Of a DNA stretch of 64,000 nucleotides, positions 1-64,000 are shown one piece after another. This DNA is from the human T2T-CHM13v2.0 reference genome, Homo sapiens, in NCBI RefSeq assembly GCF_009914755.1, contig NC_060929.1. One strand, given 5' to 3'. The notes beneath the pieces were generated by a model, which searched no databases, was not told where the DNA came from, and saw only the letters and a program-made list of their open reading frames with translations. The first letter of the stretch is position 1. Each line of letters opens with the position of its first letter. A program made the translations under genes and the position numbers.

Positions 1-420
1 CTACCTGAGAATGTGTTTTTGTCACAGTGATAGAATCACAAGGAAACTCCAGTTCTGGAAGTACATTTTAAGCCATTGCTTCTATCATGTCCACTAACAT
101 TCAGTCAGCCAAAGCACATACCTTGTCCATGGCTAACATTGATAGTATAGATAAATATACCTGATCTCTAGCAGGAGGAACTGCATTGTCTTGGGGAAAG
201 GTTTTAGATATAGGGAGGGGTGATGAGTTGGGAACAATAATGTAGTCTGCCACAAACATATTAAAGTGTAACTGGATATGGTTGCTGCAGAATTTTGAAC
301 CTTTGTTTTAATTGTGATTTTTACTCTTTTCCCCCTATCTAGTGCCCTTTCGTAATACAGTAATTCTCATGATTTTTGTCTGAATTGAAATCTTCTGAGA
401 TTAGATTGTCTACGAAAATA

Positions 421-1347
421 CAGTCGATCCTCCTTGTTTTCAGCTTTTGTATTTGTGAACTCACCTACTATTTTTTGTAACCCCCAAATCAGTACTCACA
501 GCACTTTCATAGTCATGTGTTTGCGCAGAGTGTCAAAGAATTTGAGTTTGAACAGGATGATATTCTGCCTTCTTTTTCAGCTCTCATACAATAGTCAGGT
601 ATCCTTTTTGTGGTCTATTTAATGCCATGCTTTTCCTGTTTTTGTACTGTTTGTTGGTTGTTTTGCCATTTAAATTAACCCCCAAGCATAGTGCTGAAGT
701 GCTGCTTAGCATTCACAAGTCCAAGAAGTCTGTGATGTGTCTTACAGAGGAAATACATGCATTGAATAAACTCCATTCAGGCGTGAGTGCTGTAGTGCCA
801 TTGGCTGTGAGTTCAGTGTTAATGAATGAACAATGTGTATTATTTATTTATTCTTCATTTAATTAATTATTATTATTTTTTTTGAGATAGAGTCTCACTC
901 TGTTGCTCAGGCTGGAGTGCAGTGGTGCAGTCTTGGCTCACTGCAACCTCTGCCTCCTGGGTTCAAGCGATTCCCCTGCCTTAGCCTCCCAAGTAGCTAA
1001 GTCTACAGGCATGCGCCACCATGCCTGGCTAATATATATATATATATATATATATATATATATTTTGTAGTTTTAGTAGAGACGGGGTTTCACCACGTTG
1101 GCCAGGCTGGTCTCGAGCTCCAGACCTCAAATGATCTGCCCGCCTTGGCTTCCCAAAGTGCTGGGATTACAGGCATTAGCCACTGTGCCTGGCCAACAAT
1201 ATATATATTAAATAAGCACACATACAACAAAAGTAGGTGTTGGTAAGCTTACAAAAATGTGACCAGTAGCTTGCTGAAACCTAACTTTTTATTTGTTCAT
1301 GGAACTTTCTAGACCGTAACTACACTGAATAATGAGAATCTGCTGTA
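421..1347 (+). mobile_element. TcMar-Tigger-family non-autonomous DNA transposon (MER82-like), interrupted by an Alu
   Basis: TA-flanked termini CAGTCGATCCTC... and ...GAATAATGAGAATCTGCTG; internal CCCCAAGCATAGTGCTGAAGTGCTG motif; recalled consensus. Confidence 0.6.
876..1195 (-). mobile_element. Alu with a (TA)n microsatellite in the linker
   Basis: Reverse Alu consensus; (TA)n at about 1032-1062 varies in length between copies. Confidence 0.9.
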
Positions 1348-1525
1348 ATATTTTTAGGTGCTGTAGATGAGCCATTGGATTAAATTATTACAGTATGTTT
1401 CAGACTGCTCTATGTTGAACCCTAGTGAAATGCCTCTCAAACCCTCCTAAGGATCACAATCTCATGTCCTTTTTTTTGTTATTAAATGCCCAGTATGTGT
1501 TAGCGATTTAAACAAAATTCAAATA

Positions 1526-1830
1526 TTTTTTTTTTTTTTTTTTTTTGAGACAGAGTCTCGCTCTGTCACCTAAGCTGGAGAGTGCAGTGGCATGATCGCG
1601 GCTCACTACAACCTCTGCCTCCCGGGTTCAAGCGATTCTCCTGCCTCAGCATCCTGAGTAGCTGGGATTACAGGCGCCCGCCACCACGCTGGGCTAATTT
1701 TTGTATTTTTAGTAGAGACGGGATTTCGCCAGGTTGTCCAGGCTGGTCTGGAACTCCTGACCTCATGCGATCTGCCTGCCTTGGCCTCCTGAAGTGCTGG
1801 GATTATAGGCGTGAGCCACCATGCCCGGCG
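1526..1830 (-). mobile_element. Alu (S-like)
   Basis: polyT followed by reverse Alu consensus. Confidence 0.9.
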
Positions 1831-60164: not shown

Positions 60165-60869
60165 GTATGTTTTGACTTCTGGCTTGATTGCTAGGTTGCA
60201 TGGAGGACAAACATGGAAATTAATGAAGTACCTTAATATCTGGCTTCAGATCTTAGACAGGATCAGAGGGCCAGCTCAAATTTGCAAGGAGGGGAGGTAG
60301 ATCCCACCATTTTATGGGTGAATGGCAAAATCAAGCAGAAATTATGTGGGACGGGAGATACTGATGCAGGCATCTTTGGAAACATTCTACTTAGCTAATT
60401 TTATGCTAGGCTTTAGGTCAAGAAGGAGAGAGAGAGCTGACATGCTGTGGTACACACTTATAGTCCCAGCGACTTGGAAAGCTGAGGCAGGAGGATTGCT
60501 TGATCCCAGGAGTTTGAGGTAGTGTGCGATGATCGTTCTTGTGAATAGCCACTAGCCACTGAACTCCAGCTTGGGCAACATTGAGACACCCTGTCTCTTA
60601 ATTTAAAAAAAAAAAAAAAAAAAGGAGGAAAGAAAGTGGTCTCAGTTTTTAATGTAAATATTTTTAATGGGATAATGATATTTTAAGATTAATGTATATT
60701 GTATATCAGTTAACTATAGGTCAATAATTATATAAAACTTAAGGTACGAAAAACATTTATTTTTGCTAACATATCCGTGAGTTGACTGTTCTTGGCTTGG
60801 TGAGGCTGCAAGCTGCAGATAGAGTCTAGGTATGATTTCTGTGTGTTTGTTCCCCCTTGGATCAGTGGA

Positions 60870-63800
60870 CTACCTGAGAATGTGTTTTTGTCACAGTGAT
60901 AGAATCACAAGGAAACTCCAGTTCTGGAAGTACATTTTAAGCCATTGCTTCTATCATGTCCACTAACATTCAGTCAGCCAAAGCACATACCTTGTCCATG
61001 GCTAACATTGATAGTATAGATAAATATACCTGATCTCTAGCAGGAGGAACTGCATTGTCTTGGGGAAAGGTTTTAGATATAGGGAGGGGTGATGAGTTGG
61101 GAACAATAATGTAGTCTGCCACAAACATATTAAAGTGTAACTGGATATGGTTGCTGCAGAATTTTGAACCTTTGTTTTAATTGTGATTTTTACTCTTTTC
61201 CCCCTATCTAGTGCCCTTTCGTAATACAGTAATTCTCATGATTTTTGTCTGAATTGAAATCTTCTGAGATTAGATTGTCTACGAAAATACAGTCGATCCT
61301 CCTTGTTTTCAGCTTTTGTATTTGTGAACTCACCTACTATTTTTTGTAACCCCCAAATCAGTACTCACAGCACTTTCATAGTCATGTGTTTGCGCAGAGT
61401 GTCAAAGAATTTGAGTTTGAACAGGATGATATTCTGCCTTCTTTTTCAGCTCTCATACAATAGTCAGGTATCCTTTTTGTGGTCTATTTAATGCCATGCT
61501 TTTCCTGTTTTTGTACTGTTTGTTGGTTGTTTTGCCATTTAAATTAACCCCCAAGCATAGTGCTGAAGTGCTGCTTAGCATTCACAAGTCCAAGAAGTCT
61601 GTGATGTGTCTTACAGAGGAAATAGATGCATTGAATAAACTCCCTTCAGGCGTGAGTGCTGTAGTGCCATTGGCTGTGAGTTCAGTGTTAATGAATGAAC
61701 AATGTGTATTATTTATTTATTCTTCATTTAATTAATTATTATTATTTTTTTTGAGATAGAGTCTCACTCTGTTGCTCAGGCTGGAGTGCAGTGGTGCAGT
61801 CTTGGCTCACTGCAACCTCTGCCTCCTGGGTTCAAGCGATTCCCCTGCCTTAGCCTCCCAAGTAGCTAAGTCTACAGGCATGCGCCACCATGCCTGCTTA
61901 ATATATATATATATATATATATATATATATATATATATATATATATTTTGTAGTTTTAGTAGAGACGGGGTTTCACCACGTTGGCCAGGCTGGTCTCGAG
62001 CTCCAGACCTCAAATGATCTGCCCGCCTTGGCTTCCCAAAGTGCTGGGATTACAGGCATTAGCCACTGTGCCTGGCCAACAATATATATATTAAATAAGC
62101 ACACATACAACAAAAGTAGGTGTTGGTAAGCTTACAAAAATGTGACCAGTAGCTTGCTGAAACCTAACTTTTTATTTGTTCATGGAACTTTCTAGACCGT
62201 AACTACACTGAATAATGAGAATCTGCTGTAATATTTTTAGGTGCTGTAGATGAGCCATTGGATTAAATTATTACAGTATGTTTCAGACTGCTCTATGTTG
62301 AACCCTAGTGAAATGCCTCTCAAACCCTCCTAAGGATCACAATCTCATGTCCTTTTTTTTGTTATTAAATGCCCAGTATGTGTTAGCGATTTAAACAAAA
62401 TTCAAATATTTTTTTTTTTTTTTTTTTTTTGAGACAGAGTCTCGCTCTGTCACCTAAGCTGGAGAGTGCAGTGGCATGATCGCGGCTCACTACAACCTCT
62501 GCCTCCCGGGTTCAAGCGATTCTCCTGCCTCAGCATCCTGAGTAGCTGGGATTACAGGCGCCCGCCACCACGCTGGGCTAATTTTTGTATTTTTAGTAGA
62601 GACGGGATTTCGCCAGGTTGTCCAGGCTGGTCTGGAACTCCTGACCTCATGCGATCTGCCTGCCTTGGCCTCCTGAAGTGCTGGGATTATAGGCGTGAGC
62701 CACCATGCCCGGCGTTGACTTTTTAATAATAACCATTCTGACTGGTGTGAGATGGTATGCCATTGTGGTTTTGATTTGCATTTCTCTAATGATCAGTGAT
62801 ATTGGGCTTTTTTTCATATGCTTGTTGGCCGCATGTGTGTCTTCTTTTGAAGTGTCTGTTTATGTCCTTTGCCCACTTTCTAATGAGATTTTTTTTTTCT
62901 TGTAAATTTGTTTAAGTTCCTTATCAGTGTTGGACATTAGATCTTTGTCACATGCATTGTTGCAACAATTTTCTCCTATTCTGTAGGTTGTCTGTTCACT
63001 CTGTTGATAGTTTCTTCTGCTGTGCAGAAGCTTCAAGAAGAAAGGAATCCGATTGGTTCTGTGTCTGTCTCTTTTGGTATTCTCAGACTTATGTAGTCAT
63101 CCATATAGAAAGGTGATTAGGAAAATAGGACAAGAATAGCAGAAATCTACATAAAAATGTAGGAAATTAAAATTAGTTACCAGCATACAAAAAACTACTA
63201 TATGTTATAATTACATACTATAACTCACCCCTCCTTGCCAAATATTCTCTCTCTTTTGACTTCAAAATCATGGCTTATATGTACTTTCTCTATTTCCCAG
63301 ATGCAAATATAATTAATTGACTTTATTTATCTAGGAAATATTACTGATATCTTAATTGTAGTCATTGGCTTGAGTGACGGGTTTTGGTAATTCAACTACT
63401 ATTACTTGAAAGTAGTAGATTTCATAAGATACTGTTATAAAATCTTTTTAACCTCTTTTCTGATTTCAGGAGTAATTAGTAATTGTGGTTTACTGGAAAA
63501 TTCAATGAATAGCGTGTTAAAGGAAGCAATTCGTTAATAATATATCTAATCTATTGGGAGACTGAGGCGGGTGGGTCACCTGAGATCAGGAGTTCGAGAC
63601 CAGCCTGGCCAACATGGCAAAACTCCGTCTCTACTAAAAATACAAAAATTCGCCGGGCATGGTGGTGCATTCCTGTATTCCCAGGTACTCGGAAGGCTGA
63701 GGCAGGAGAATCACCTGAACTCCAGAGGTGGAGGTTGCAGTGAGTCAGGATCGCAGCACTACACTCCAGCCTGGGTGACAGAGTGAGACTCCATCTCAAA

Positions 63801-64000
63801 AAAAAAAAAAAATTAAAAAATTAAATTAAAAAAAAGCGGGCCGGGCGCATTGGTTCAGGGCCGGGCACGGTGGCTCAAGCCTGTAATCCCAGCACTTTGG
63901 GAGGCCGAGGCAGGCGGATCACGAGGTCAGGAGATCAAGACCATCCTGGCTAATGTGGTGAAACCCGGTCTCTACTAACAATACAAAAATTAGCTGGATG
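60870..64000. repeat. Tandem unit, copy 4 (partial, runs off the window)
   Basis: Matches about 1-3117 of copy 1, with a few SNVs and a longer (TA)n tract. Confidence 0.97.

What the first reader, a model, noticed from the sequence alone, without database searches (positions are those of the whole stretch)
1..64000. Gene-bearing ~20.3-kb macrosatellite: each unit carries an intact intronless POM121-like ORF and an upstream LTR
Seen: at least 3.15 near-identical head-to-tail units, each with an undisrupted frame of more than 1160 codons, while the neighbouring GUSB exons are frameshifted. Known: the primate macrosatellites D4Z4 (DUX4) and RS447 (USP17L) carry one intronless ORF per unit and vary in copy number. 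Inference: this array may be a comparable dosage-variable gene family, poorly resolved in short-read data. ORF retention across near-identical copies alone is not evidence of selection.
Basis: partly seen in the sequence, partly recalled or inferred. Interest (0 to 1): 0.8.

Follow-up and report, generated by a model that had tools for sequence, protein, structure and literature searches.

The report
Tandem GUSBP duplicon array carrying POM121-like genes
This is a real, very young tandem array of 20.3-kb units on human chromosome 5p14.3, each with an open POM121-derived gene, but it belongs to an already catalogued, copy-number-variable duplicon family whose protein evolves without detectable amino-acid constraint.

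Summary
The window is the interior of a head-to-tail array (period 20,286-20,297 bp; 13 mismatches in 43,732 aligned columns between neighbouring units). In this assembly it spans about chr5:21,483,387-21,604,514, roughly 6 units. Each unit carries a 1164-codon intronless ORF on the minus strand (Pfam POM121, E 4e-68), an LTR-LTR element upstream, and GUSB pseudogene fragments; exon 10 has a 2-bp deletion.

It is a tandemly amplified piece of the known chromosome 5 'SMA-GUSBP / Glu5-10' core duplicon. Sister arrays lie at 5p13.2 (7 units) and 5q13.2 and share the same junction with 3-bp microhomology. Single copies lie at 5q21 and on chromosome 6.

The ORF is itself a repeat: about 3.4 in-frame copies of an 807-822-bp module, with 1 to 5 modules among paralogs. 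21 of 25 chr5/chr6 copies are open. dN/dS is about 1. Nonsense variants are fewer than expected (4 against 10.6, P about 0.02) and frameshifts occur only in the dead copies.

The literature already lists a GUSBP tandem array, GUSBP1 copy-number variation, and these chr5 ORFs, with a few peptides and nine GENCODE v49 coding annotations. Verdict: real, mostly known, function open.

The parts
1..9346 (.). 3' part of an array unit (unit 0), ending at a unit junction
   Evidence: Self-alignment; junction mapped
9339..9346 (.). Tandem junction (also at 29625-29632 and 49919-49926). Sequence that in single-copy paralogs lies about 20 kb apart is joined here with 3-bp (ACC) plus imperfect microhomology; not inside an Alu
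   Evidence: window 8300-9346 continues into chr5:21604514 and a chr6 end; window 9339-10025 starts at chr5:21483387 and the other chr6 end
9347..29632 (.). One complete 20,286-bp unit
29633..49926 (.). Second complete unit (20,294 bp)
49927..64000 (.). 5' part of a third unit
12880..16374 (-). POM121L1P-like ORF, 1164 codons, unit copy 1 (P0001)
33166..36660 (-). ORF copy 2 (P0002; 2 residues differ from copy 1)
53460..56954 (-). ORF copy 3 (protein identical to copy 1)
12975..15778 (-). In-frame internal tandem repeat inside the ORF, about 3.4 modules of 807/816 bp (269/272 codons); same at 33261-36064 and 53555-56358
12883..12969 (-). C-terminal hydrophobic tail (residues 1136-1164), encoded by a T-rich tract; the only hydrophobic segment of the protein
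   Evidence: Kyte-Doolittle scan, sequence, AF2 helix 1128-1162 at pLDDT 70-91
16747..17346 (.). Only CpG-enriched stretch of the unit (GC 0.56-0.60, observed/expected 0.6), 0.4-1 kb upstream of the ATG
17471..17668 (-). 3' LTR remnant of the upstream LTR element, cut at 17471 by an Alu-like insertion (about 17240-17480)
19227..19590 (-). 5' LTR of the same element. Repeat core is 19383-19580; outer limits are read by eye. The RefSeq model starts of units 2 and 3 (39737, 60031) fall inside it. Same feature at about 39513-39876 and 59807-60170
   Evidence: hub gene table
3390..3577 (+). GUSB exon-5-like fragment (annotated GUSBP1 exon); also at 23677 and 43973
   Evidence: Hub table; weak PF00703 hit E 0.084 for the unit-2 copy
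9099..9274 (+). GUSB exon-10 homolog with a 2-bp deletion (frameshift); also at 29385 and 49679
   Evidence: (alignment to chr7 GUSB), PF02836 hit E 0.0028

Best explanation
The window is the inside of a young tandem amplification, about 6 units and 121 kb in this genome, of a 20.3-kb piece of the chromosome 5 SMA-GUSBP (Glu5-10) core duplicon. The founding step was a tandem duplication joined at a 3-bp microhomology inside a GUSB-pseudogene intron (shown). That junction is shared by the arrays at 5p13.2 and 5q13.2, so it predates their dispersal (shown). Units are then gained, lost and homogenised by unequal exchange between the 20-kb repeats. This is inferred from two results: substitutions between inner units are about 3 in 10,000, while the left edge unit is 97% identical. 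The process makes copy number vary between people (from print). Each unit carries, head to head with GUSB pseudogene fragments, an intronless POM121-derived ORF behind an LTR element in which the RefSeq models start. The ORF is built from 1-5 in-frame copies of a module of about 270 codons. It ends in a hydrophobic helix read from a T-rich tract, so the product would be a long disordered, basic, Ser/Ala/Pro-rich protein with a C-terminal membrane anchor (predicted). Its amino-acid sequence drifts at the neutral rate. The frame is kept open more often than chance predicts, which I read as weak selection against truncation (about 0.4 probable). The alternative is youth plus copying of open modules (about 0.6).
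For: Array and identity. Extent: five full and two partial matches between chr5:21,483,387 and 21,604,514. Duplicon family: paralogs at chr5 34.3, 70.4-71.7, 100.0 and 100.9 Mb and chr6 26.76 and 57.77 Mb, matching the published distribution of SMA-GUSBP (PMC6920530 passages; PMC2621205 passages). Junction; contiguous across the junction in the 5p13.2 and 5q13.2 arrays. GUSB origin: (the next GUSB exon sits just beyond the array end at 21,608,944). ORF. Paralog ORFs: 19 of 22 fetched full-length copies open from ATG to stop, with 895, 897, 1164-1166, 1437-1439 or 1564 codons. Two single-module copies are open over the part fetched. Neutral amino-acid rate: NG86 dN/dS 1.0-1.4 between arrays and 0.5-1.6 for most lineage pairs over N-terminus plus first module. 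In the all-copy test 248 non-synonymous and 87 synonymous variants compare with 234 and 94 expected. Frame kept: 4 nonsense variants against 10.6 expected over 339 unique variants in all 25 copies (P 0.0195). The same variants make 9 stops against 10.5 and 9 against 11.1 expected in the two other frames. Indels in the repeat part are about 8 in-frame against 3 frameshifting; 0 of 8 flank indels are multiples of 3 (Fisher P 0.003, counts approximate). Protein. Translation and annotation: passages of PMC12679747. Copy-number variation.
Against: No amino-acid constraint was found in any comparison. 4 of 25 copies are broken, one of them inside the 5p13.2 array. The nonsense deficit is modest (P about 0.02) and rests on a consensus-based count of unique variants. 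An 'intact copies only' version is circular and I discount it. One in-frame indel is plain hexamer slippage. The CDS diverges 2-3 times faster than its flanks and is rich in transversions. Exchange among the internal modules could therefore inflate the number of 'independent' variants. PMC12679747 states that none of the ORFs has conservation support and that most peptides come from cancer cell lines. The membrane anchor and disorder are predictions from a single-sequence model (mean pLDDT 31.9). Unequal exchange, transcription from the LTR and copy-number variation at this particular locus were not tested here.
Confidence: 0.85

Rival explanations
1. Dosage-variable functional gene family. 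The POM121-like ORF is the selected cargo; array size sets the dose of a testis- or germline-expressed membrane-anchored protein, as with DUX4 in D4Z4 or USP17L in RS447.
For: One open ORF per unit. 21 of 25 paralog copies are open at up to 6% divergence, all module lengths in open copies are multiples of 3, and there is a nonsense and frameshift deficit. Some peptides were found in sperm and nine chr5 ORFs are coding in GENCODE v49 (PMC12679747 passages). The family copy number varies.
Against: dN/dS is about 1 everywhere. There are only about 6 units here. Broken copies exist. The authors of PMC12679747 could not place the peptides on one locus and call the case unplaced. No expression data could be examined here.
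Confidence: 0.3
2. Passenger relic. The duplicon spreads for reasons unrelated to the ORF. The ORF is open because the copies are young, the sequence is 60% G+C, and an already open module was copied in frame. Translation is incidental.
For: dN/dS is about 1. The array units differ by about 3 substitutions per 10,000 bases. The older chr6 copies and one 5q21 copy are broken. Print reports no conservation support and peptides mostly from cancer lines. The review of core duplicons treats the GUSB-like part as the gene and never mentions POM121 (0 occurrences).
Against: 4 nonsense variants against 10.6 expected, while control frames fit expectation. In-frame indels are enriched against flanks. 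The 5q21 copy at 100.897 Mb is open over 1564 codons although its flanks are 3.8-4.4% diverged.
Confidence: 0.55
3. Assembly artefact: the array is an over-expansion of one or two real units.
For: Near-identical 20-kb repeats are hard to assemble. I could not see reads.
Against: Units carry their own variants and lengths (20,286, 20,294, 20,296 and 20,298 bp spacings). There is a diverged edge unit with an 895-codon ORF. Two other arrays have the same architecture. A tandem GUSBP array was already in an older reference (PMC2588610), and the probe-based copy number of 8-20 per diploid genome fits many units.
Confidence: 0.02

Closest known systems
SMA-GUSBP (Glu5-10) core duplicon of human chromosome 5 (PMC6920530; PMC2621205)
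   Same: Same GUSB-derived fragments and same places (5p14, 5p13, 5q13, 5q21, chr6), and it is a tandem-plus-dispersed family.
   Different: [quoted passage not shown] Here I find arrays of about 6 and 7 units, and the long open frame is the POM121-like one. The LTR12C the review places upstream of SMA-GUSBP was not looked for here.
5q13.2 GUSBP tandem array in Warburton et al. 2008 (PMC2588610, table passage)
   Same: [quoted passage not shown] I see the same 21.3-kb spacing at chr5:71,672,167 and 71,693,468.
   Different: Two copies at 5q13.2 in the old reference; the 5p14.3 array is not in the passages I saw.
POM121L1P-like ORFs / UniProt A6NNC1 (PMC12679747)
   Same: ORFs on chr5, 6 and 22 made of three or four long POM121-derived repeats, with few peptides and nine annotated as coding in GENCODE v49.
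   Different: The passages I read do not mention the 20-kb tandem arrays, the range of 1-5 modules, the hydrophobic tail or any rate test.
D4Z4 (DUX4) and RS447 (USP17L) macrosatellites (recalled, no call)
   Same: Head-to-tail units, one intronless ORF per unit, variable copy number.
   Different: Units are 3-5 kb in tens to hundreds of copies, against 20.3 kb in about 6 copies here. This array is one of several sites of a dispersed duplicon.
POM121 nucleoporin (Pfam PF15229)
   Same: The N-terminus plus first module covers profile positions 9-234 of 235 (E 1.9e-55).
   Different: No FG dipeptide, no N-terminal hydrophobic segment, modules 2-4 lack the 42-codon core, and a new C-terminal hydrophobic tail is present.

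Membership tests
Macrosatellite (D4Z4 / RS447 type) | Head-to-tail tandem units of kilobase size with high identity | tested here: met
   Period 20,286-20,297 bp; 13 mismatches in 43,732 columns
Macrosatellite (D4Z4 / RS447 type) | Many units (tens or more) in one array | tested here: not met
   About 5.97 units between chr5:21,483,387 and 21,604,514 in this assembly
Macrosatellite (D4Z4 / RS447 type) | Unit number polymorphic between people at this locus | not testable with these tools
   Only family-wide probe data in print (range 8.3-20.5 per diploid genome; tag SNPs near chr5:21.47-21.51 Mb with r2 about 0.35)
Macrosatellite (D4Z4 / RS447 type) | One intronless ORF per unit | tested here: met
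   3 of 3 units in the window; 5 of 5 inner units and the edge unit in the array
SMA-GUSBP / Glu5-10 core duplicon | Truncated GUSB-derived sequence | tested here: met
   Exon-10 homolog 90.6% identical to chr7 GUSB; the next GUSB exon flanks the array
SMA-GUSBP / Glu5-10 core duplicon | Copies spread along chr5 with a copy on chr6 | tested here: met
SMA-GUSBP / Glu5-10 core duplicon | LTR12C upstream of the GUSBP part (PMC6920530) | not tested
   No repeat library available; the LTR element I mapped lies upstream of the POM121-like ORF and looks like a different family (name recalled only)
POM121 family (PF15229) | Match above Pfam gathering score | tested here: met
   230 bits against a cut-off of 27, 4 stretches
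POM121 nucleoporin proper | N-terminal membrane segment and FG repeats | tested here: not met
   The only hydrophobic window is residues 1136-1164; FG count 0
LTR retroelement (non-autonomous, MaLR/THE1-like; name recalled) | Two direct terminal repeats about 2 kb apart, family dispersed in the genome | tested here: met
   198-nt pair, 88% identical, spacing 1912; 15 dispersed 88-90% matches among the 40 candidates scored, 9341 first-look candidates
Tail-anchored membrane protein | Single hydrophobic helix at the extreme C-terminus | tested here: met
   KD19 up to 2.26 at 1139-1164; AF2 helix 1128-1162
Tail-anchored membrane protein | Actual membrane insertion | not testable with these tools
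   Needs expression and fractionation or imaging

The most novel reading that the evidence does not exclude
The POM121-like ORF, not the GUSB pseudogene, is the selected cargo of the chromosome 5 core duplicon. On this reading it is a hominid-specific, disordered, membrane-anchored protein. Selection keeps its reading frame and length open while its sequence, its module number (1-5) and its gene number are all free to vary. That would give the one core duplicon family with 'no signature described' the same kind of fast-evolving gene as NPIP or NBPF.
Probability: 0.3. Interest if true: 0.6.

Novelty: new member of a known kind. Interest (0 to 1): 0.35.

Why it matters
Core duplicons seed much of the human-specific segmental duplication, and the chr5 family flanks the SMN genes. 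The review I read lists for it no function and no signature of selection, and it discusses only the GUSB-like part. If the POM121-like ORF is what is kept, copy number at 5p14.3, 5p13.2 and 5q13.2 would set the dose of a protein that short reads cannot assign to a locus. If the ORF is only a passenger, the nine new coding annotations for these ORFs deserve caution. Either way the shared microhomology junction is a simple marker for dating and genotyping these arrays in pangenome and ape assemblies.

Tried and rejected
Tandem Repeats Finder found nothing because its period limit is 500.

The bacterial promoter/terminator scan is not meaningful for human DNA and was at shuffle level.

Six-frame Pfam scans of plus-strand peptides (116 of at least 45 aa; 52 more including 45 of 28-44 aa) gave only two sub-threshold GUSB-type hits. 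I therefore compared exon 10 directly with chr7.

The first unique-variant test used only intact copies (0 stops against 7.5 expected). It is circular, and its alignment forced the non-homologous tail onto the repeat. I redid it with all 25 copies and the tail split off. The result weakened from P 0.0006 to P 0.02.

I therefore made no unit-by-unit tree of all six units and no full comparison with chr6 or chr7.

Literature searches that found nothing: 'POM121L' with 'macrosatellite' and 'POM121-like' with 'CHM13'. 'GUSBP1' with 'CHM13' found one unrelated SMA paper. PMC13639854 and PMC11821543 have no passage on these ORFs.

I did not use the protein database searches, fold search or complex prediction. 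The protein is predicted disordered, and the held databases are mainly microbial.

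
Full report
**Observation.** The window (human T2T chr5:21,514,001-21,578,000 according to the hub) repeats on itself.
- Identical 24-mers recur at 20,294 bp (10,945 of them) and 20,286 bp (9,567).
- Self-megablast aligns 1-43700 with 20290-64000, with 13 mismatches and 13 gap openings in 43,732 columns. It aligns 1-23403 with 40585-64000, with 9 mismatches in 23,426.
- Under the standard code there are exactly three ATG-to-stop ORFs of at least 300 aa, all 1164 aa on the minus strand: 12880-16374, 33166-36660 and 53460-56954.
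- Two of the three proteins are identical and the third differs at two residues.
- The protein matches Pfam PF15229 (POM121) at E 4.4e-68.
- The reading frame has no internal stop. The other five frames of the same stretch have 13-55 stops.

**Extent and neighbours.**
- A search of the whole assembly with the ORF finds five full copies at 20.29-kb spacing on chr5 (21,506,582 to 21,587,756) and a shorter sixth at 21,487,199.
- Searches with two other parts of the unit give the same picture. They place the ends at 21,483,387 and 21,604,514, about 5.97 units.
- The same unit forms a second array at chr5:34.31-34.44 Mb: seven ORF copies, opposite orientation, 20.44-kb spacing, 98% identical.
- It also forms short arrays in 5q13.2 (21.3-kb spacing, 96-97%).
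- It occurs singly at 5q21 (two sites, 94%) and on chr6 (26.76 and 57.77 Mb, 95%).
- Copies on chr22 and chr20 match only the first 1400 bases at about 91%.

**How the array was made.**
- In the single-copy paralogs, the sequences left and right of window position 9339-9346 lie about 20 kb apart, at the two ends of the duplicated segment. In the array they are joined.
- Read side by side, the two ancestral ends share ACC followed by an imperfect five-base match, and the join is not inside an Alu.
- The 5p13.2 and 5q13.2 arrays are contiguous across the same point. One microhomology-mediated tandem duplication therefore predates their dispersal.
- The inner units of the 5p14.3 array differ by about 3 substitutions per 10,000 bases.
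- The left edge piece is only 97.2% identical, keeps 165 bp that the inner units lack, and has an ORF one module shorter at 895 codons.
- A homogenised centre with diverged edges is what repeated unequal exchange produces. This step is inferred, not shown.
- With a recalled human rate of about 0.5e-9 per site per year, the inner units coalesce roughly 0.3 million years ago. This too is inference.

**Unit anatomy.**
- On the ORF strand, a 198-nt direct repeat pair (19383-19580 and 17471-17668; 88% identical, 1912 bp apart) brackets about 1.7 kb upstream of the ATG.
- The outer end of the pair matches dispersed copies at 88-90% on many chromosomes. The downstream member is cut by an Alu-like insertion.
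- This is an LTR-internal-LTR element. By eye it resembles the THE1/MaLR group, but that name is recalled and no repeat library was available.
- The RefSeq model starts of units 2 and 3 (39737, 60031; hub table) fall inside the upstream LTR.
- The only CpG-enriched stretch of the unit is 16747-17346.
- On the plus strand lie GUSB fragments:
  - an exon-5-like piece at 3390-3577 (hub table; PF00703 E 0.084);
  - 76 bases at 4560-4635 that match the first 80 bases of the chr7 GUSB stretch fetched around exons 6-8;
  - an exon-10 homolog at 9099-9274, 90.6% identical to chr7 GUSB, with a 2-bp deletion in the exon.
- The rest of the chr7 stretch that carries Pfam profile positions 1-145 has no match in the unit.
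- The next GUSB exon lies 4.4 kb beyond the array end. The junction therefore sits in a GUSB-pseudogene intron.

**The ORF is itself a repeat.**
- Bases 12975-15778 are about 3.4 copies of an 807/816-bp module, 96-97.5% identical.
- The first module keeps a 126-bp core that the later ones lack. It covers Pfam profile positions 9-234 of 235.
- Among paralogs the open ORFs have 895, 897, 1164, 1165, 1166, 1437, 1439 or 1564 codons.
- Two 5q13.2 copies have a single module.
- Module lengths in open copies are 807, 810, 816, 819 and 822, all multiples of three. In broken copies they are 742, 817 and 820.
- The protein is 16.6% Ser, 13% Ala, 10% Pro and 8.8% Arg. It has four basic clusters and no FG.
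- Its only hydrophobic window is residues 1136-1164. That window is encoded by a T-rich tract.
- A single-sequence AlphaFold2 model has mean pLDDT 31.9, with 1113 of 1164 residues below 50. It has two helices, 187-202 and 1128-1162, the latter at pLDDT 70-91.
- The predicted product is therefore a long disordered chain with a C-terminal anchor. The model is weak evidence.

**Is the ORF under selection?**
- *Tally.* Of 25 chr5/chr6 copies, 21 are open. 19 were verified from ATG to stop. The 2 single-module copies are open over the part fetched.
- The four broken copies are:
  - one 5p13.2 unit, with a 68-bp deletion;
  - chr6:26.76 Mb, with a 2-bp deletion, a 1-bp insertion and two stops;
  - chr6:57.77 Mb, with a stop in the core;
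  - chr5:100.02 Mb, with stops before the tail.
- *Amino-acid rate.* Nei-Gojobori dN/dS is 1.0 between the 5p14.3 and 5p13.2 arrays and 1.3-1.4 against 5q13.2. It is 0.5-1.6 for most lineage pairs over the unambiguous N-terminus plus first module. I see no amino-acid constraint.
- *Nonsense variants.* I counted every distinct substitution once across all modules, N-termini, cores and tails of all 25 copies. There are 339 variants: 248 non-synonymous, 87 synonymous and 4 nonsense.
  - Given the observed mix of transitions, CpG transitions and transversions, the expectation is 234, 94 and 10.6 (P of 4 or fewer = 0.0195).
  - As a control, the same variants read in the other two frames would make 9 stops against 10.5 expected and 9 against 11.1.
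  - All four real nonsense variants are in three copies outside the arrays.
- *Indels.* In the repeat part there are about eight in-frame events (6, 6, 3, 3, 9, 18 and 126 bp, plus whole modules) against three frameshifts.
  - All three frameshifts are in broken copies.
  - None of eight indels in 2.9 kb of flanks is a multiple of three (Fisher P 0.003).
  - The counts are approximate, and one 6-bp event is plain slippage.
- *Caveats.*
  - The CDS diverges faster than its flanks: 2.0% against 0.5-1.0% for 5p14.3 versus 5p13.2.
  - Its variants are transversion-rich: 159 transitions to 180 transversions, against 104 to 61 in flanks.
  - Exchange among the internal modules may therefore blur what counts as an independent event.
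- *Reading.* I take the data as modest evidence that truncation is selected against while the sequence itself drifts, and I give that about 0.4.

**What is already in print.**
[quoted passage not shown] It reports broad expression that is highest in testis and brain, no function and no selection signature. POM121 is not mentioned (PMC6920530, passages).
- PMC2621205 cites a 'Glu5-10' core duplicon, a truncated GUSB, near 5p14 and 5q13 (passages).
- Warburton et al. 2008 list a 5q13.2 GUSBP tandem array: 36.9 kb, 21.3-kb unit, 2 copies, more than 99% (PMC2588610, table passage).
- Supplements of Brahmachary et al. 2014 class a GUSBP1 probe as a variable multicopy gene: reference 13 copies, mean 14.3, range 8.3-20.5. 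They show tag SNPs near chr5:21.47-21.51 Mb (PMC4063668, supplement passages).
- Population means are in Table 1 of PMC11420239 (section read).
[quoted passage not shown] It reports three peptides, mostly from cancer lines and some from sperm, and nine chr5 ORFs annotated as coding in GENCODE v49 (PMC12679747, passages).
- My searches found no paper that joins these strands or describes the 5p14.3 array itself. Subscription journals and supplements I did not open may hold more.

**Verdict.** It is a further, larger array of a known tandem-and-dispersed duplicon, not a new kind of element, and its gene family is already annotated. New here are the shared microhomology junction, the 1-5 module series that keeps the frame, the T-rich origin of the hydrophobic tail, and the pattern of a neutral amino-acid rate with a deficit of truncating changes. 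Whether the protein matters remains open.

Noticed in passing
G000 chr5:34,307,000-34,442,000 (loci L012-L018): A second array of the same unit at 5p13.2, in opposite orientation: seven ORF copies at 20.44-kb spacing. Six have 1165 codons; one is broken by a 68-bp deletion (419 + 654 aa).
   Followed up: partly
window 13300-16000, plus strand (for example L010 4116-4700): Each internal module also carries an antisense ATG ORF of 151-194 aa, present in nearly all paralogs. It has no Pfam match. It is probably a by-product of the GC-rich repeat.
   Followed up: partly
window 12880-16374 against flanks 11430-12879 and 16375-17824: The CDS diverges 2-3 times faster between arrays than its flanks and is transversion-rich (159:180 against 104:61). 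This is unexplained.
   Followed up: partly
L026 (chr5:100,896,797-100,901,491); also L025, L027, L033: The 5q21 and chr6 copies carry an extra in-frame 324-bp duplication of the ORF start, which gives a 1564-codon open ORF at 5q21.
   Followed up: partly
window about 9720-10025 and 10668-10976: Two Alu-like elements about 0.9 kb apart in opposite orientation (87-88% inverted matches), just inside the unit next to the junction.
   Followed up: no
window about 10025 (L029 1572-1737): Inner units of this array lack about 165 bp that the edge unit and all other paralogs keep. This is a private marker of the homogenised 5p14.3 units.
   Followed up: no
window 16375-16698, minus strand: The frame stays open for 108 codons upstream of the annotated ATG. 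A chr22 paralog starts its ORF in that upstream part.
   Followed up: no
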